A DNA stretch of 64,000 nt from the human T2T-CHM13v2.0 reference genome, Homo sapiens. The notes beneath the pieces were generated by a model, which searched no databases, was not told where the DNA came from, and saw only the letters and a list, made by a program, of their open reading frames with translations. The stretch lies in assembly GCF_009914755.1 (NCBI RefSeq), contig NC_060928.1; one strand, 5' to 3'. Each line of letters begins with the position of its first letter. Position 1 is the first letter of the stretch. Below, in pieces: positions 7,096 through 45,059 of this stretch. The translations under genes and the position numbers were made by a program.

Positions 7096-9597
7096 GAAAG
7101 GGATAAGTATCTACTATGAGCAACTAACTGTGATTCCATTATCTCTTCAATTGTCCAAACCATCTCATTAAATGGGCAGCATTCCAATACAGAATTGTGT
7201 TTTTCAAGATTCTAAATCCTGGAAGGAACTAAACATTAGAGTTGTTCTAACTAAGAGGACTTTTAAATGATAATTCACTTATTAAATCAGCTTCTAATAA
7301 TGAATGAATTTGCTGTGACTCATGGTACATGAAAATGATATGATCTGGTGGATAGAAAATACCTGCTGTGGGATGTCTCAGTGACATTCCCTTCCCAAGC
7401 CAAGATGGTTCTAAGTCATTTATAAGATTTGGAACAGATAAAATGCTATTTTGAAGCATTAAATTATAATTGTGCAAATATATGCAAATATACATGCAAT
7501 TTCTAAATCTACGTAACAATGGGATTTTTTTAAAGCCAAGAAAATATTCCCCAAAAATGTATGCAGAAAATATTGAGGCTAGTTCAAGTCAGTCTCACCC
7601 TCTCTTAATTAGTACTTTACTTTTTCAGTGTTGACAAACCTAAACTCCAGAAATAGTCACGCAATGAAATCCGCCAAATCACCTCCTCTGTGTTTTTATT
7701 TTATAGCTGAGGAAAGTGAGACTCAGATGGGTTATAAAGTTTACGTCTAAGATACCACACTAGTAAATTTGAGCCACAGCACTCATATTTATATTTTTTC
7801 TCTCCTGGTGTCTCTAAAGGTAATTTTTCCAGATCTAACTTCCAGTTCACTCCTTTCTTCAAGGGTGTTTGCAAAGCAATGTCTAGTATATAGTAAATGA
7901 TATGTACCTGTTAGCTGTCATATCATCCTTATGATAAATCCCTTCTTTATTCATCAGATTTTAAGTTTAATAATTACATTTTTATCTCCAGAGTTCCCTT
8001 TCATTCTTTTTCCAAATCTGTTTGGTCATGCATGATAATCCATTGTTGCTTGCTATCTTTATTCTCTTTTATTTCTTTAAACATGGTATTCTTAGGTAGA
8101 ATGTCTTCTGTACCTGATAATGCCAGAGTATTTGAAGACCTCAGGGGTCAAAATCTGTTCATAGTTGTTTAGACTGACTGTCATCCATGCGTGTTTTGCC
8201 ATTTTTCCCTAGGAGTTCTTACTTGCCTGAAGTTAACCTGGGAGCACCCTGGAGGCTCTAAGCTGAAGATGCTGACTCCCCAAGGTACTCTGCATCTTCT
8301 ATTTCTGGACAATAGGAATGGCTCTCAAACTAGGGATGCTTTAAGCTATTGGCTTTATTTTCTCTGACTTTATGGATGGTACTAAAATAACCCTAGATCC
8401 ATATGAGAACAGTCCTGTACCAGAGCTAACAAATTCCACTGGAGACCAGTATTGTCACTAATTAAATTCTATCCAGAGTCACAGCAGTGACACACATGCT
8501 TTTTTTGTTTCTTCAGTCTAGCTTTTCACTGATTGTTTAGACCCTGTGAGAGCAAACCTTTAGGAGGGCATCTCAAGCCCAGCATCCTCCCCCTTGCATG
8601 ACCTCCAGATCCATTTTCTCATACCTGGTATGATCAATAATCCTCAACGTTTCAGGCACCTGGTTGCATCATTTTACCCAGAATGACTCTGCCTTCACAA
8701 TCACTCACCTCTCTAGTGTCAGCTCATGATTTGTTTGTTTGAGTTGTGGTTTTTAGGACATTCCTTACTTTCTTGTGGGCTCAGCAATGCACAGGCAAGT
8801 ATGGTTTCTTTGTGATTTATTCAGCATGTAGATATTCCACAGTATAAACGCTTTCCAGCTCATCTTATCCACCACATGGCTGGAAGAGGAAATTCATACA
8901 GACCTCAGGGATAACTCTAATTAATAAACGGCTGTTCTCTGGGCCCCACCAGCCAGGGAGAAAGAGGACCAGACACTTAACTTTCATCCCTCTTCTTCCC
9001 AGCCTTTTCAAATGCTCCCAGAAGAGTGCTGCTGGGCCCTAGGAGAATGCCTCTTATAGGTGCTGTGAAGTTTACATTTCCACCTTTTCTCTTTTGCTCT
9101 CTAGATTGCAATGCTGCTATTTCTGATCACCAGAGACATCAAAATGTTCACTCTGTCTCCCTTGTCCACCAAATCACCCTCTGTTTGCTCCTGCTGCTGC
9201 TGTTTCTGCCCAAAACCCGGGACACCAACTTTTGGATGAAGAATGCCAATACCAAGAGTCACAGCACCATCCCATTCACTCTAGGCTGGTTCACCCTTGT
9301 GATGAAGACCACCATCCCATGGCTATTGGCATCTTTGTTCTCCACTTCCACACCAATCATAGACAGAACACCTTTCTATTTTTCGTCAGTGAGGGAGGCT
9401 CAGTGTCAAAGACATTCATTATCCCTATAAGCAACATGCTTTGAGTATATATACACACAAACACATACATACCTATATTTATACACACACACACACACAC
9501 ACCTATTTATCTGCACTTTTATCACCAATCTTATCTTTCTCATGCAATCAGGTCATTTTCTGCAGATTTGGTAAGCACCAGGAGATTCAGACATCAT

Positions 9598-21228: not shown

Positions 21229-21517
21229 CTGCAGATTCAACCAGCTGCAGATGGAAAATATTCAGAGAAAAAAATAGTAAATAACAATACAACGATAAAA
21301 ATAAAACTTTAAAAAACAATACAACTATTTACATAGTAATTACATTATACTAGATATTATAACTAATTCAGAGATAATTTGAAGTATACCACAGGATGTT
21401 TGTAGGTTACATACAAATACTATGCCATCTTACATCAGAGACATGAGCAGTCACAGATTTTGGTATTTGGAGGGGGTCCTCAAACAAATCTCCCACAGAT
21501 GCCAAAGGAAAACGGTG
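21229..21517 (-). mobile_element. MER2-type Tigger MITE, left terminus missing
   Basis: 'gattcaacc..ctgcagatggaaaatattcag', 'gtaggttacatacaaatactatgccat', 'cagattttggtatttggagggggtcct...cccacagatgccaaagga' match MER2 reverse strand. Confidence 0.8.
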
Positions 21518-21586
21518 TGTCTGTCTGTATGTATATACATATTTTATATATATAATATATTATATTTTTGATGATATAATATATTG

Positions 21587-22029
21587 ATGATGTTTCAATC
21601 AACAGCTGCATATATGATGATCTTAGAAGATTATAATGGAGCTGCCCTACATAGGTGTACAATATTTAAATGTTTCACATTGTGTTTATGCTGTTTCTTT
21701 CTATGTTTAGATACATAAACACTTAACGTTGTGTTACAATTGCTTACAATATTCAGTACAGTAAAATGCTGTACAGTTTGTAACCCAGGAGCAACAGGCT
21801 ATACCATGTAGCCTCTGTGTGTAGTGAATTATAGCATCTAGGTTTTTGTACGTATACTCTAATGTTTACACAATGACAAAATCATCTAATGATACATTTC
21901 TCAGAGCATGTCACTGTCATTAAGTGACAAATAACTATAATGTGTAAATGTGTGGGGTATGTGGATACATACATATGCATGCATATGTGTGTATATATAT
22001 AAAATATATAATATTGTGTATATATATAA
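21587..22029 (-). repeat. Left arm of a long inverted repeat (truncated Tigger3 MITE copy plus ~90 bp flank)
   Basis: Reverse complement of 25798-26236; manual alignment gives 14 substitutions and 3 small indels over ~440 bp. Confidence 0.95.
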
Positions 22030-25000
22030 TGTATATAATATATATAATATATTATATAAATAATATATAATATATAATATAAATAATATATATTCTATAT
22101 AATATATTATATATTATATATAATATAAATAATATATATTCTATATAATATATTATATATTATATATAATATAAATAATATATATTCTATATAATATATT
22201 ATATATTATATATAATATAAATAATATATATTCTATATAATATATTATATATTATATATAATATAAATAATATATATTATATAAAATATATAATATAAAT
22301 ATAATGTATAATATATAATATATAATATTATATATTTTATATATAAGATATATATTTTATTATATTATATATTATATATTTATATAATATAATATATATT
22401 TATATAATATAATATATATTTATATATTATATATTTATATAATGTAATATATATTTATATATTGTATATTTATATAATGTAATATATATTTATATATTGT
22501 ATATTTATGTAATATATATTTTTATATTGTATATTTATATAATATATATTTATATATTATATATTTATATAATATATATTTATATATTATATATTTATAT
22601 AATATATATTTATATATTATATATTTATATATTATATATTTATATATTATATATTTATATAATATAATATATATTTATATATTATATATTTATATAAATA
22701 ATATATATTTATATATTATATATTTATATAATATAATATATATTTATATATTATATATTTATATAATATAATATATATTGATATATTATATATTTATATA
22801 ATATAATATATATTGATATATTATATATTTATATAATATAATACATATTGATATATTATATATTTATATAATATAATACATATTGATATATTACATATTT
22901 ATATAATATAATACATATTGATATATTACATATTTATATATTATATATTTATATAAATAATATATATTTATATATTATATATTTATATAAATAATATATA
23001 TTTATATATTATATATTTATATAAATAATATATATTTATATATTATATATTTATATAAATAATATATATTTATATATTATATATTTATATGGATAATATA
23101 TATTTATATATTATATATTTATATAGATAATATATATTTATATATTATATATTATATAAATAATATATATTTATATATTATATATTTATATAAATAATAT
23201 ATATTTATATATTATATATTTATATAAACAATATATATTTATATATTATATATTTATATAAACAATATATATTTATATATTATATATTTATATAAACAAT
23301 ATATATTTATATATTATATATTTATATAAACAATATATATTTATATATCATATATTTATATAAACAATATATATTTATATATCATATATTTATATATTAT
23401 AATGTATATTTATATATCATATATTTATATATTATATATATATTTATGTATCATATATTTATATATTATATATATATTTATGTATCATATATTTATATAT
23501 GATATATATATTTATGTATCATATATTTATATATTATATATATATTTATGTATCATATATTTATATATTATATATATATTTATGTATCATATTTATATAT
23601 TATATATATATTTATGTATCATATATTTATATATTATATATATATTTATGTATCATATATTTATATAATAGAATATATATTTATGTATCATATATTTATA
23701 TAATAGAATATATATTTATGTATCATATATTTATATAATAGAATATATATTTATGTATCATATATTTATATAATAGAATATATATTTATGTATCATATAT
23801 TTATATAATAGAATATATATTTATGTATCATATATTTATATAATAGAATATTTATTTATGTATCATATATTTATATAATAGAATATATATTTATGTATCA
23901 TATATTTATATAATAGAATATATATTTATGTATCATATATTTATATAATAGAATATATATTTATGTATCATATATTTATATAATAGAATATATATTTATA
24001 TATCATATATTTATATAATAGAATATATATTTATATATCATATATTTATATAATAGAATATATATTTATATATCATATATTTATATAATAGAATATATAT
24101 TTATATATTATATATTTATATAATAGAATATATATTTATATATTATATATTTATATAATAGAATATATATTTATATATTATATATTTATATAATAGAATA
24201 TATATTTATATATTATATATTTATATAATAGAATATATATTTATATATTATATATTTATATAATAGAATATATATTTATATATTATATATTTATATAATA
24301 GAATATATATATTATATATTTATATAATAGAATATATATATTATATATTTATATAATAGAATATATATATTACATATTTATATATTATATATTTATATAA
24401 TATAATATATATTATATATTTATAGAATATCATATATATTATATATTTATATAATATAATATATATATTATATATTCATATATTATATATTTATATAAGA
24501 ATATAATATATATTCATATATTATATATTTATATAATAATATAATATATATTCATATATTATATATTTATATAATAATATAATATATATTCATATATTAT
24601 ATATTTATATAATAATATAATATATATTCATACATTATATATTTATATAATAATATAATATATATTCATACATTATATATTTATATAATAATATAATATA
24701 TATTCATACATTATATATTTGTATAATAATATAATATATATTCATATATTATATATTTATATAATAATATAATATATATTCATACATTATATATTTATAT
24801 AATAATATAATATATATTCATATATTATATATTTATATAATAATATAATATATATTCATATATTATATATTTATATAATAATATAATATATACTCATATA
24901 TTATATATTTATATAATATATAATATATATTATATAAATACATAATATATATTATATATATTTATATATCATATAATTATATATAAATATATATATAATT

Positions 25001-25797
25001 ATGTATCATATAAATATATATAATTATATATCATATATTTATATATATAATTATATATCATATAATTATAGATATATAATTATATATCATATAATTATAT
25101 GATATATAATTATATATCATATAATTATAGATATATAATTATATATCTATAATTATATATAAATATATATATAATTATATATCATATAATTATATAAATA
25201 TATATATAATTATATATCATATAAATATATATATAATTATATATCATATAAATATATATAATTATATATCATATAATTATATGTAAATATATATAATTAT
25301 ATATCATATAATTATATATATATAATTATATATCATACAATTATATATCATATAATTATATATAAATATATATATAATTATATATCATATAATTATATAT
25401 AAATATATATATAATTATATATCATATAATTATACATATTTATATATAATTATATATCATATAATTATATATAAATATATATAGTTATATATCATATAAT
25501 TATATATAAATATATATATATTTATATATAGTTATATATCATATAATTATATATAAATATATAATATATCATATATTATATATAAATATATAATATATCA
25601 TATATTTATATATAATTAATAATATATTATATTATATATTATATTATATATTTATATATAATTATATGATATATTATATGATATATTATATTATATATTA
25701 TATAATGTATAATATAATAAAATATATAATATTATATATCATATATTTTATATATTATACATTATATTTATAATATATTATATATTTCATATATATT
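22030..25797. repeat. ~3.8 kb compound AT-rich minisatellite (46-, 35-, 38-bp and shorter units)
   Basis: Almost exclusively A/T. Periodicity read from the rare G/C bases: C at 22095/22141/22187/22233 (46 bp), G at 22780-22920 every 35 bp, G at 23671-24301 every 35 bp, C at 24515/24553/24591/24629 (38 bp). Confidence 0.97.
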
Positions 25798-26236
25798 TTA
25801 TATATATACACTATTATATATTTTATATATATACACACACATATGCATGTATATGTATGTATCCACATACCCCACACACTTACACATTATAGTTATTTGT
25901 CACTTAATGACAGTGACATGCTCTGAGAAAGGTATCATTAGATGATTTTGTCATTGTGTAAACATTAGAGTATACGTACAAAAACCTAGATGCTATAATT
26001 CACTACACACAGAGGCTACATGGTATAGTCTGTTGCTCCTAGGTTACAAACTATACAGCATATTACTGTACTGAATATTGTAAGAAATTGTAACACAACG
26101 TTAAGTGTTTATGTATCTAAACATAGAAACAGCAGAAACACAATGTGAAACATTTAAATACTGTACACCTGTGTAGGGCAGCTCCATTATAATCTTCTAA
26201 GATCATCACATATGCAGTTGTTGACTGAAACATCAT
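25798..26236 (+). repeat. Right arm of the long inverted repeat
   Basis: Reverse complement of 21587-22029. Confidence 0.95.
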
Positions 26237-26253
26237 TATGTGGTACATGGCTG
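25890..26253 (+). mobile_element. Tigger3/GOLEM (MER7-type) MITE, complete with both TIRs
   Basis: TA|tagttatttgtcacttaatgac...ctctgagaaa..aaacctagatg..ttgctcctagg..gcagctccattataatct..gaaacatcattatgtggtacatggctg|TA matches the remembered Tigger3 consensus. Confidence 0.85.
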
Positions 26254-26255
26254 TA

Positions 26256-44641: not shown

Positions 44642-44885
44642 AAATCCTTGTTGTTGTTATTAATCAGCATTAGGTGAACTCCTACTATTAATACATGGAG
44701 ATAACTGATCACAAGGCTTTCTTCCAAACAATGCATCACAGAATATACCCTGGGTGTCAACTGCCTAAATTTCTGGTTCCCCATTCAAAGGCTGATGCAT
44801 TCCCCTATTAATTGAAATTGTAGTTATAGGAAGAAAAGTGGAAATAAGACTCTTCTGATAAGCGTGGAAGACTATGAATACATAA

Positions 44886-45059
44886 TTTCACTCCTCTTTT
44901 GACAAAGATCTCTTTAAGTTCAGCCTATGGATCTCTGCTTAGTTGACGCTTCGACCAAGAACTTAACCATGAATACCTTTTTTCACTCCTCTTTTGACAA
45001 AGATCTGTTTGAGTTCACCCTACAGATCTCTGCTTAGTTGACGCTTCGACCAAGAACTT
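44886..45059. repeat. 79-bp direct duplication with a 16-bp spacer
   Basis: 44886-44964 versus 44981-45059, five mismatches. Confidence 0.93.

What the first reader, a model, noticed from the sequence alone, without database searches (positions are those of the whole stretch)
21587..26236. 4.65 kb locus: ~440-bp inverted arms enclosing a 3.8-kb AT-only minisatellite (PATRR/fragile-site-like)
Seen: 21587-22029 is the reverse complement of 25798-26236 (14 substitutions, 3 small indels, ~96%). The homology continues ~90 bp past the transposon end into ordinary flank (AATGTGTAA.TGTGTGGGGTATGTGGATACATACATAT). The two copies share private departures from the Tigger3 consensus, and only the right copy has both TIRs. 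So this is an inverted duplication, not two independent insertions, and a repeat annotator would hide it as 'two Tiggers plus simple repeat'. Established: palindromic AT-rich repeats (PATRR11/22/17) extrude cruciforms and drive translocations; AT-rich minisatellites underlie FRA16B/FRA10B; expanded TA tracts are cut by MUS81-EME1 in WRN-depleted MSI cells. Inference: a fold-back or template-switch event at a TA tract created the arms and the centre then expanded. The arms could support recurrent inversion of the centre or a large stem-loop. Whether this locus is already described cannot be told from the sequence.
Basis: partly seen in the sequence, partly recalled or inferred. Interest (0 to 1): 0.85.

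Follow-up and report, generated by a model that had tools for sequence, protein, structure and literature searches.

The report
Inverted duplication flanking AT-rich minisatellite
An old inverted copy of a transposon fragment and its neighbouring DNA brackets a 3.8-kb AT-rich tandem array in a human lncRNA intron; it is a real but explainable structural feature, not a PATRR-type palindrome.

Summary
Window 21587-22029 is the reverse complement of 25798-26236: 445 columns, 14 mismatches, 3 gaps covering 8 columns, 95.1% identity.

It is a duplication, not two insertions.
- The next-best 38 scored genomic copies of the element are only 74-82% identical.
- The arms share 35 derived sites against 9 private ones.
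- Homology runs about 90 nt past the transposon end, into sequence found nowhere else in the genome.

The centre is 95.8% A+T, not AT-only. It is a composite of 46, 15/30, 34, 35 and 38-bp sub-arrays. Most of it is head-to-tail in one orientation, so it is not mirror-symmetric.

The PATRR reading fails. The arms are about 66% AT, the spacer is 3.77 kb, and the longest pure (TA)n is 12 nt.

The array belongs to the widespread FRA16B/FRA16C-type class of AT-dinucleotide-rich sequences. At least 37 other loci match it. It is absent from a published hg38 list of arrays of 3 kb or more.

The best model is an ancient replication template switch in a TA tract, followed by minisatellite growth. Fragility and inversion remain untested. 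Interest is modest.

The parts
21340..21516 (+). End of an unrelated interspersed repeat. It forms the left outer flank, and its copies elsewhere stop at about this point.
   Evidence: 1114 first-look candidates and 40 scored matches, 39 of them elsewhere in the genome at 75-81%. Most alignments end at query positions 151-177, which is window position 21516 or lower. The family name was not determined with the tools.
21517..21586 (.). GT/TA-rich low-complexity remnant outside the left arm. It is inferred to be the left end of the ancestral TA-rich tract. A 19-bp tandem duplication at 21555-21592 spans the junction.
   Evidence: Sequence; TRF. It has only low-complexity similarity to the inner flanks, about equal in both orientations (scores 25-26, against a shuffle mean of 12.3 and maximum of 20).
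21587..21937 (-). Left arm, transposon part. It is an inverted copy of the Tigger-like element and lacks the outer 17 nt of its terminus.
   Evidence: (95% to the right copy).
21938..22029 (-). Left arm, non-transposon part. It is an inverted copy of the TA target dinucleotide plus about 90 nt of flank. Weaker homology runs to about 22064.
   Evidence: innerL against innerR: minus strand 89% over 75 nt, plus strand 77%.
22030..25797 (+). Composite AT-rich minisatellite of 3768 nt between the arms. Sub-array periods: 46 (about 22050-22400), 15/30 (about 22400-22750), 35 (about 22750-22950), 34 (about 22950-23620), 35 (about 23620-24330, up to 99% self-match), 38 (about 24430-24900, 98%), and degenerate 25-37 (24900-25800). 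Blocks from 22420 to 24900 share one orientation.
25798..25889 (+). Right arm, non-transposon flank. It is degenerate CA/TA-rich but unique, and ends with the TA target site at 25888-25889.
   Evidence: (found only at the two arms in the whole genome).
25890..26253 (+). Right, source copy of a short Tigger-like DNA transposon with both termini, flanked by TA on each side. Arm homology ends at 26236.
Evidence: other genomic copies start and end at the same columns. No repeat library was available.

Best explanation
Ancestral state (inferred). A TA/GT-rich low-complexity tract lay between the end of one interspersed repeat (about 21516) and a short, old Tigger-like DNA transposon (25890-26253).

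The event (inferred). Roughly 15-35 million years ago a replication error copied about 475 nt in reverse complement. The copied stretch held the inner TA-rich edge, about 90 nt of unique flank, and all but the outer 17 nt of the transposon. The copy landed at the far side of the TA tract. This is a template switch of the 1-4-3-2 kind in the four-point model, with both junctions in TA-rich DNA. It created the two inverted arms.

Afterwards. The TA-rich DNA between the arms grew by slippage and unequal exchange into a 3.8-kb composite minisatellite. The array is largely one-directional, and its youngest blocks are 98-99% uniform.

Today (inferred). The arms are too far apart (3.77 kb) and too diverged (95%, longest perfect run 97 nt) to extrude a cruciform or to recombine often. 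Any instability should come from the array itself. It belongs to the FRA16B/FRA16C class of AT-dinucleotide-rich sequences, which are expected to vary in length and to hinder replication forks under stress.

Shown: the duplication, its limits, and the array structure.
For: Duplication:
- The arms are 95% identical, against 74-82% for the 38 other scored genomic copies out of 2953 first-look candidates.
- In the transposon part there are 35 shared-derived sites, 2 private to the left arm and 7 private to the right, judged against 6 other copies. 57 columns were left out as ambiguous.
- A 71-nt piece of the non-transposon flank occurs only at the two arms in the 3.1-Gb genome. The one other hit is 45 nt of low complexity.

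Breakpoints in TA-rich DNA:
- Inner homology fades inside AT-rich sequence at about 22064/25761.
- The outer junction at 21587 sits in a TA-rich remnant.

Mechanism precedent: short-range template switches generate inverted repeats and are enriched in AT-rich DNA (PMC7954356, passages).

Age: Kimura two-parameter (K2P) distance is 3.6% over 397 sites outside the AT-rich part.

Later growth of the array:
- The 35-bp and 38-bp blocks self-match at 98-99%.
- Blocks from 22420 to 24900 match each other at 84-92% on the plus strand, against 75-81% on the minus strand.

Class:
- The array hits at least 37 other AT-rich loci.
- A 3.4-kb composite array of 32/33/37-bp AT-rich minisatellites from FRA16C is enough to make a fragile site (PMC6765107, passages).

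A second, smaller case of the same architecture exists at G000:C2:200396670-200397261. It has 82-nt arms at 95% around 428 nt of AT-rich array.
Against: - No outgroup genome could be examined, so the ancestral state, the age, and the order 'duplication first, expansion later' are inferred.
- The copied stretch (about 475 nt) is longer than the tens to hundreds of nucleotides typical of published short-range template switches.
- The microhomology at the outer junction is ambiguous. ATGATG is blurred by a 19-bp tandem duplication.
- Single-strand DNA folding gives no special hairpin signal beyond composition. The z-score against shuffles is +4.06 for the 35-bp block (folds worse than shuffles), -1.15 for the 38-bp block and -2.15 for the 46-bp block.
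- Only 1 of 17 other surveyed arrays has array-abutting inverted arms, so the architecture is uncommon.
Confidence: 0.7

Rival explanations
1. The inverted copy arose through a double-strand break in the TA tract rather than a fork template switch. Resection and intrastrand fold-back priming made a hairpin-capped or palindromic intermediate. A second joining in the TA tract restored the chromosome.
For: Both junctions are in self-complementary TA-rich DNA. Inverted repeats and AT-rich repeats are known break sites that give inverted duplications (PMC8053094, passages).
Against: It needs a second rejoining that keeps all flanking DNA intact. No deletion or filler is visible. The sequence alone cannot separate it from a template switch.
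Confidence: 0.2
2. The locus acts today as a PATRR-like or large stem-loop element. The 440-nt arms pair into a cruciform or hairpin and cause breaks or translocations.
For: If the whole 4.8 kb were single-stranded, the minimum-energy fold pairs the arms completely: 427 pairs, -454 kcal/mol for the arm helix alone.
Against: - The spacer is 3768 nt. In yeast, fragility of 320-bp inverted Alus falls sharply once the spacer exceeds about 8 bp (PMC8053094, passages).
- PATRRs have no spacer and are more than 90% AT (PMC4940405, passages). The arms here are about 66% AT.
- The arms have persisted long enough to diverge by 3.6%.
- The listed PATRR sites do not include 4p15.
Confidence: 0.04
3. The arms mediate recurrent inversion of the centre by non-allelic homologous recombination, making the array orientation polymorphic in people.
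For: The repeats are 440 nt, inverted, 95% identical and 3.8 kb apart. The array is polar, so an inversion would be detectable.
Against: The longest perfect identity is 97 nt. The 14 substitutions are spread along the arms, with spacings of 7-98 nt and no homogenised tract. This argues against frequent exchange or gene conversion. A search for 'CPEB2-DT' with 'inversion' found 0 papers.
Confidence: 0.1
4. The arms are two independent insertions of the same transposon family in opposite orientation beside a simple repeat.
For: The family is abundant: 2953 first-look candidates.
Against: The arms are 95% identical, against 82% or less for the other scored copies. They share 35 derived sites. Homology extends 92 nt beyond the element end into unique DNA. 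The left copy is truncated without its terminus.
Confidence: 0.01
5. The left arm is an assembly artefact, a fold-back chimera in an AT-rich region.
For: AT-rich arrays are hard to assemble. Only one assembly was available.
Against: The arms differ at 14 sites and 3 indels. A chimeric fold-back would give identical arms. The left arm is joined to distinct unique flank. A 4.65-kb locus is shorter than typical long accurate reads (general knowledge).
Confidence: 0.03

Closest known systems
AT-dinucleotide-rich sequences (AT-DRS) and AT-rich minisatellites of FRA16C/FRA16B and FRA10B
   Same: The sequence is more than 90% A+T. It is a composite of several minisatellite motifs of about 30-45 bp: here 34, 35, 38 and 46, against 32/33/37 at FRA16C, 33 or 35 at FRA16B and about 42 at FRA10B (PMC6765107 and PMC9714581, passages). 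It is kilobase-sized. The sequence aligns at about 75% on both strands to the start of the FRA16C array in this genome.
   Different: No cytogenetic fragile site is mapped to it. It is below the 5-kb threshold quoted for FRA10B expression. It is absent from the hg38 list of 31 arrays of 3 kb or more. It is bracketed by a 440-nt inverted duplication, which 16 of 17 other surveyed arrays lack.
Palindromic AT-rich repeats (PATRR11, 22, 17, 8 and others)
   Same: Inverted symmetry of several hundred nucleotides is associated with AT-rich DNA. At birth the structure may have resembled a palindrome with an AT-rich centre (inference).
   Different: PATRR arms are themselves more than 90% AT, nearly perfect and unspaced. 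Here the arms are about 66% AT and 95% identical, with a 3768-nt non-symmetric spacer.
Short-range template-switch mutations (four-point model)
   Same: A reverse-complement copy of nearby sequence is inserted next to its source. The 1-4-3-2 order yields a single inverted repeat. The context is AT-rich.
   Different: The copied stretch is about 475 nt and the present distance is 3.8 kb, larger than the tens to hundreds of nucleotides described there.
Expanded (TA)n dinucleotide repeats cut in WRN-deficient microsatellite-unstable cells
   Same: Both are TA-rich and have self-complementary potential.
   Different: There is no long uninterrupted (TA)n here. The longest run is 12 nt. I saw only search listings and abstracts for those papers.

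Membership tests
PATRR | Nearly perfect palindrome without a spacer | tested here: not met
   The arms are 95.1% identical with 3768 nt between them. The centre is a one-directional tandem array, not mirror-symmetric. Definition from PMC4940405, passages.
PATRR | More than 90% A+T across the palindromic arms | tested here: not met
   The arm windows 21600-21999 and 26000-26199 are 65.5-67.5% A+T.
PATRR | Translocation breakpoints at the centre of symmetry; listed among known PATRR sites | not testable with these tools
   The review passages list 11q23, 22q11, 17q11, 8q24, 4q35.1, 1p21.2, 3p14 and 9p21, with none at 4p15. No breakpoint data were available.
AT-DRS / FRA16B-FRA10B-type AT-rich minisatellite | About 90% A+T or more, with tandem units of about 30-45 bp, often several motif types | tested here: met
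   95.8% A+T over 3851 nt. Periods are 46, 15/30, 34, 35 and 38. At least 37 similar loci exist genome-wide.
AT-DRS / FRA16B-FRA10B-type AT-rich minisatellite | Length in the 'long' class (3 kb or more); for FRA10B-type expression, more than 5 kb | tested here: inconclusive
   The array is 3.77-3.85 kb in this assembly, so the 3-kb mark is met and the 5-kb mark is not. The TwistFlex program that defines the published list was not run. The locus is not in the hg38 list.
AT-DRS / FRA16B-FRA10B-type AT-rich minisatellite | Chromosome gaps or breaks under distamycin A, BrdU or aphidicolin; length polymorphism | not testable with these tools
   No cytogenetic, break-mapping or population data were available. 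The 4p15 band holds FRA4D (supplement of PMC6765107), but that band spans tens of megabases by my recollection.
Inverted duplication by template switch | Reverse-complement copy of adjacent sequence that shares the source's private changes and flank | tested here: met
Inverted duplication by template switch | Ancestral allele without the copy in outgroups; microhomology at the switch points | not testable with these tools
   No primate genomes were held. The outer junction has a possible ATGATG microhomology, blurred by a 19-bp tandem duplication.
Long (TA)n repeats dependent on WRN | Long uninterrupted TA dinucleotide run | tested here: not met
   The longest (TA)n in any 200-nt window of the locus is 12 nt.
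Tigger3-type (pogo-like) DNA transposon | Interspersed family with defined termini and a TA target-site duplication | tested here: met
There are 2953 first-look candidates. Six aligned copies start and end at common columns, and the right copy is flanked by TA on both sides. The family name itself was not tested against a repeat library.

The most novel reading that the evidence does not exclude
Template switching at TA tracts first makes a near-palindrome with an AT-rich centre, a proto-PATRR. The centre then escapes instability by growing into a long AT-rich minisatellite. On this view, inverted-flank architecture marks one birth route of the long AT-rich arrays that underlie fragile sites. 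This chr4 array would be a previously unlisted, length-variable one: 3.8 kb in T2T-CHM13 and absent from the hg38 list of arrays of 3 kb or more. The second, smaller case on chromosome 2 would be an earlier stage of the same route.
Probability: 0.15. Interest if true: 0.6.

Novelty: new member of a known kind. Interest (0 to 1): 0.33.

Why it matters
The locus adds a long composite AT-rich array to the class shown experimentally to stall forks and create fragile sites. This array is not in the published hg38 list of arrays of 3 kb or more.

It also gives a clean, datable example of a roughly 0.5-kb inverted duplication seeded in a TA tract.

Because the array is polar and bracketed by inverted arms, length and orientation variation can be read directly from long-read pangenomes. 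No gene or annotated functional element is affected. The locus lies in an intron of the lncRNA CPEB2-DT.

Tried and rejected
- The survey of other AT-rich arrays was cut short. I hand-listed 37 distinct loci, where 29 further matches were not printed. Only 20 could be fetched. Of the 20, 2 had no block at 90% AT or more over 300 nt or more, and 1 ran off the fetched stretch. That left 17.
- I guessed that L038 (G000:C16:70.917 Mb, a 3.7-kb array of 37-bp units) was the published FRA16C array. The paper's primers 6L and 6R do not occur in it. Primer 6L lies 196 kb away at C16:71113724. The guess is rejected.
- Mirror symmetry of the centre was tested by G/C marker positions and by strand-specific block comparison. 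It is rejected for 22420-24900 and undecided for the two outermost blocks.
- Specific homology of the left outer TA remnant to the inner flanks was tested. The similarity is only low-complexity and about equal in both orientations.
- Single-strand folds of array blocks show no consistent excess over shuffles.
- Literature searches for this locus found nothing: 'CPEB2-DT' with 'inversion' gave 0 papers, and '4p15.33' with 'AT-rich' and 'fragile' gave 0 papers. Broader searches returned general papers. I did not open them all, and none was seen to name this locus.
Full report
**1. Observation**

The inverted arms are real. The repeat finder reported them in two pieces because of indels (I1 and I23). 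blastn joins them as window 25798-26236 against 22029-21587: 95.06% over 445 columns, 14 mismatches, 3 gap openings, E = 0. A global alignment gives 14 mismatches, 8 gap columns and a longest perfect run of 97 nt.

The centre is not 'AT-only'. Positions 21990-25840 hold A 1769, T 1922, C 88 and G 72, which is 95.8% A+T.

**2. One duplication, not two insertions**

The whole T2T-CHM13 genome could be searched.

- The right-hand element (25889-26254) matches the left copy at 95%. The other 38 scored copies match at 74-82%, out of 2953 first-look candidates of which 40 were scored.
- I aligned both arms with six other copies. Those copies begin at a common column, so the element here is 25890-26253, flanked by TA on both sides.
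- The two arms stay homologous for a further 92 nt beyond that end.
- The left copy departs from the family 17 nt before the outer terminus.
- I scored columns where at least 4 of the 6 other copies agree. The arms share 35 derived states, 2 are private to the left arm and 7 to the right, 247 are unchanged, and 57 columns were set aside as ambiguous.
- A 71-nt piece of the non-transposon flank occurs only at the two arms in 3.1 Gb. The one other hit is 45 nt of low complexity.

The name 'Tigger3' was not tested against a repeat library.

**3. The surroundings**

- The left outer flank (21340 to about 21516) is the end of a different interspersed repeat. There are 1114 first-look candidates, and most alignments stop at window position 21516 or lower.
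- Between it and the left arm lie about 70 nt of GT/TA-rich low complexity. A 19-bp tandem duplication spans the junction.
- This remnant has only orientation-independent, low-complexity similarity to the inner flanks.
- Inward, arm homology continues into AT-rich sequence. Positions 21990-22064 match 25761-25840 at 89% on the minus strand and 77% on the plus strand. Beyond that it sinks to the roughly 75-80% background that any two AT-rich stretches show in either orientation.

So both ends of the duplicated segment lie in TA-rich DNA.

**4. The centre**

TRF calls a 35-bp period with 110 copies at 85% match. A sliding autocorrelation resolves the following sub-arrays:

| Period (bp) | Approximate span | Note |
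|---|---|---|
| 46 | 22050-22400 | |
| 15/30 | 22400-22750 | |
| 35 | 22750-22950 | |
| 34 | 22950-23620 | |
| 35 | 23620-24330 | up to 99% self-match |
| 38 | 24430-24900 | 98% self-match |
| 25-37 | 24900-25800 | degenerate |

Blocks between 22420 and 24900 match one another at 84-92% on the plus strand and only 75-81% on the minus strand. The bulk is therefore a single head-to-tail array with a polarity, not a palindrome. The G and C marker positions are likewise not mirror-symmetric. The longest pure (TA)n is 12 nt.

**5. Structure potential**

If the whole 4.8 kb is folded as one DNA strand, the minimum-energy structure pairs the arms completely. There are 427 pairs, and the arm helix alone is worth -454 kcal/mol. 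This is thermodynamics only, because it needs 4.65 kb single-stranded at once.

Folding of 300-nt array blocks against dinucleotide shuffles gives these z-scores:
- 35-bp block: +4.06, which is worse than shuffles
- 38-bp block: -1.15
- 46-bp block: -2.15

Hairpin potential is thus a property of the composition, not of the specific arrangement.

In yeast, breaks and fork arrest at 320-bp inverted Alus fall steeply once the spacer exceeds about 8 bp (PMC8053094, passages). A 3768-nt spacer puts the arms far outside that regime.

**6. How common are the array and the architecture?**

A 431-nt piece of the array hits AT-rich arrays at 37 or more other places at 72-82%, usually on both strands. 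There were 647 first-look candidates, 40 scored and 29 matches not printed.

I fetched 9.9 kb around 20 of these. Seventeen had an AT block with both flanks in view.
- Sixteen show no array-abutting inverted match. Four of these 16 (L023, L030, L036, L037) have inverted matches at 72-81% that are not placed symmetrically, consistent with unrelated interspersed repeats.
- One, L025 (G000:C2:200396670-200397261), has 82-nt arms of ordinary, non-AT-rich sequence, 95% complementary, around 428 nt of AT-rich array. It is a smaller instance of the same architecture.

**7. Literature**

- PATRRs are several hundred bp long, more than 90% AT and nearly perfect palindromes without spacers. The listed sites do not include 4p15 (PMC4940405, passages).
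- A 3.4-kb array from FRA16C, composed of 32, 33 and 37-bp AT-rich minisatellites, creates a fragile site when moved to HPRT: 42 of 1318 X chromosomes broke there. The 33-bp motif is the one expanded at FRA16B (PMC6765107, passages).
- Supplementary Table S3 of that paper lists 31 such arrays of 3 kb or more in hg38. Chromosome 4 has only one, at 31.81 Mb. The present locus is not there. Either the hg38 allele is shorter or the TwistFlex criterion splits it. I could not tell which.
- FRA10B is quoted as fragile when its array exceeds 5 kb. FRA16B has 33- or 35-bp units (PMC9714581, passages).
- Short-range template switching produces inverted repeats (order 1-4-3-2) and is enriched in AT-rich DNA (PMC7954356, passages).
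- Searches for this locus by name found nothing.
- For the WRN/(TA)n work I saw only listings and abstracts.

**8. Explanation**

Shown: an inverted duplication of about 475 nt with both breakpoints in TA-rich DNA, enclosing a polar composite minisatellite whose youngest blocks are far more uniform than the arms are to each other.

Inferred:
- A template switch, or a fold-back after a break, occurred at an ancestral TA tract that lay between two old transposon ends.
- The event dates from arm divergence. K2P distance is 3.6% over 397 sites. With recalled neutral rates of 0.5-1.0 x 10^-9 per site per year this is 18-36 million years. It is about 15 million years if scaled to a recalled human-orangutan divergence of about 3.4%.
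- The minisatellite grew later.
- The even spread of the 14 substitutions, with spacings of 7-98 nt, gives no sign of gene conversion. This argues against frequent arm-to-arm exchange.
- Present-day behaviour should be that of a long AT-rich array: length variation and fork hindrance under stress. The arms are essentially passive.

**9. Verdict**

- The duplication inference is confirmed.
- The PATRR and (TA)n analogies are rejected on tested defining features.
- The fragile-site analogy is reasonable by class but untested.

The locus is a new member of known kinds: an AT-dinucleotide-rich minisatellite plus a template-switch inverted duplication. Its main value is as a tractable example and as a candidate for pangenome genotyping.

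Noticed in passing
L025:4671-5262 (G000:C2:200396670-200397261): A second, smaller locus with the same architecture. It has 82-nt inverted arms of ordinary sequence, 95% complementary, enclosing 428 nt of AT-rich array.
   Followed up: partly
L038:3631-7350 and 7280-9002 (G000:C16:70916830-70922200): A 3.7-kb AT-rich array of 37-bp units, followed by a 215-bp higher-order repeat. It lies 196 kb from the FRA16C array marked by the published primer 6L at C16:71113724. It is not the published array itself.
   Followed up: partly
L026 (G000:C23:112732800-112738600 and beyond): A very long AT-rich array on the X chromosome. Matches span 112733615-112740646 (at least 7 kb), and the AT block ran off the fetched stretch.
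   Followed up: no
window 21340-21516: The left flank of the locus is the terminal part of another abundant interspersed repeat that ends just where the TA-rich tract begins. Two transposon ends therefore face the same TA tract. This would fit TA-targeting elements landing in a TA-rich tract (inference).
   Followed up: partly
window 44874-45059: A 95-bp unit repeated twice at 91% match. It is the only other tandem repeat in the window with a TRF score of 300 or more.
   Followed up: no
window 21555-21592: A 19-bp tandem duplication (2 copies, 84% match) spans the outer junction of the left arm. It obscures any microhomology at the junction.
   Followed up: partly
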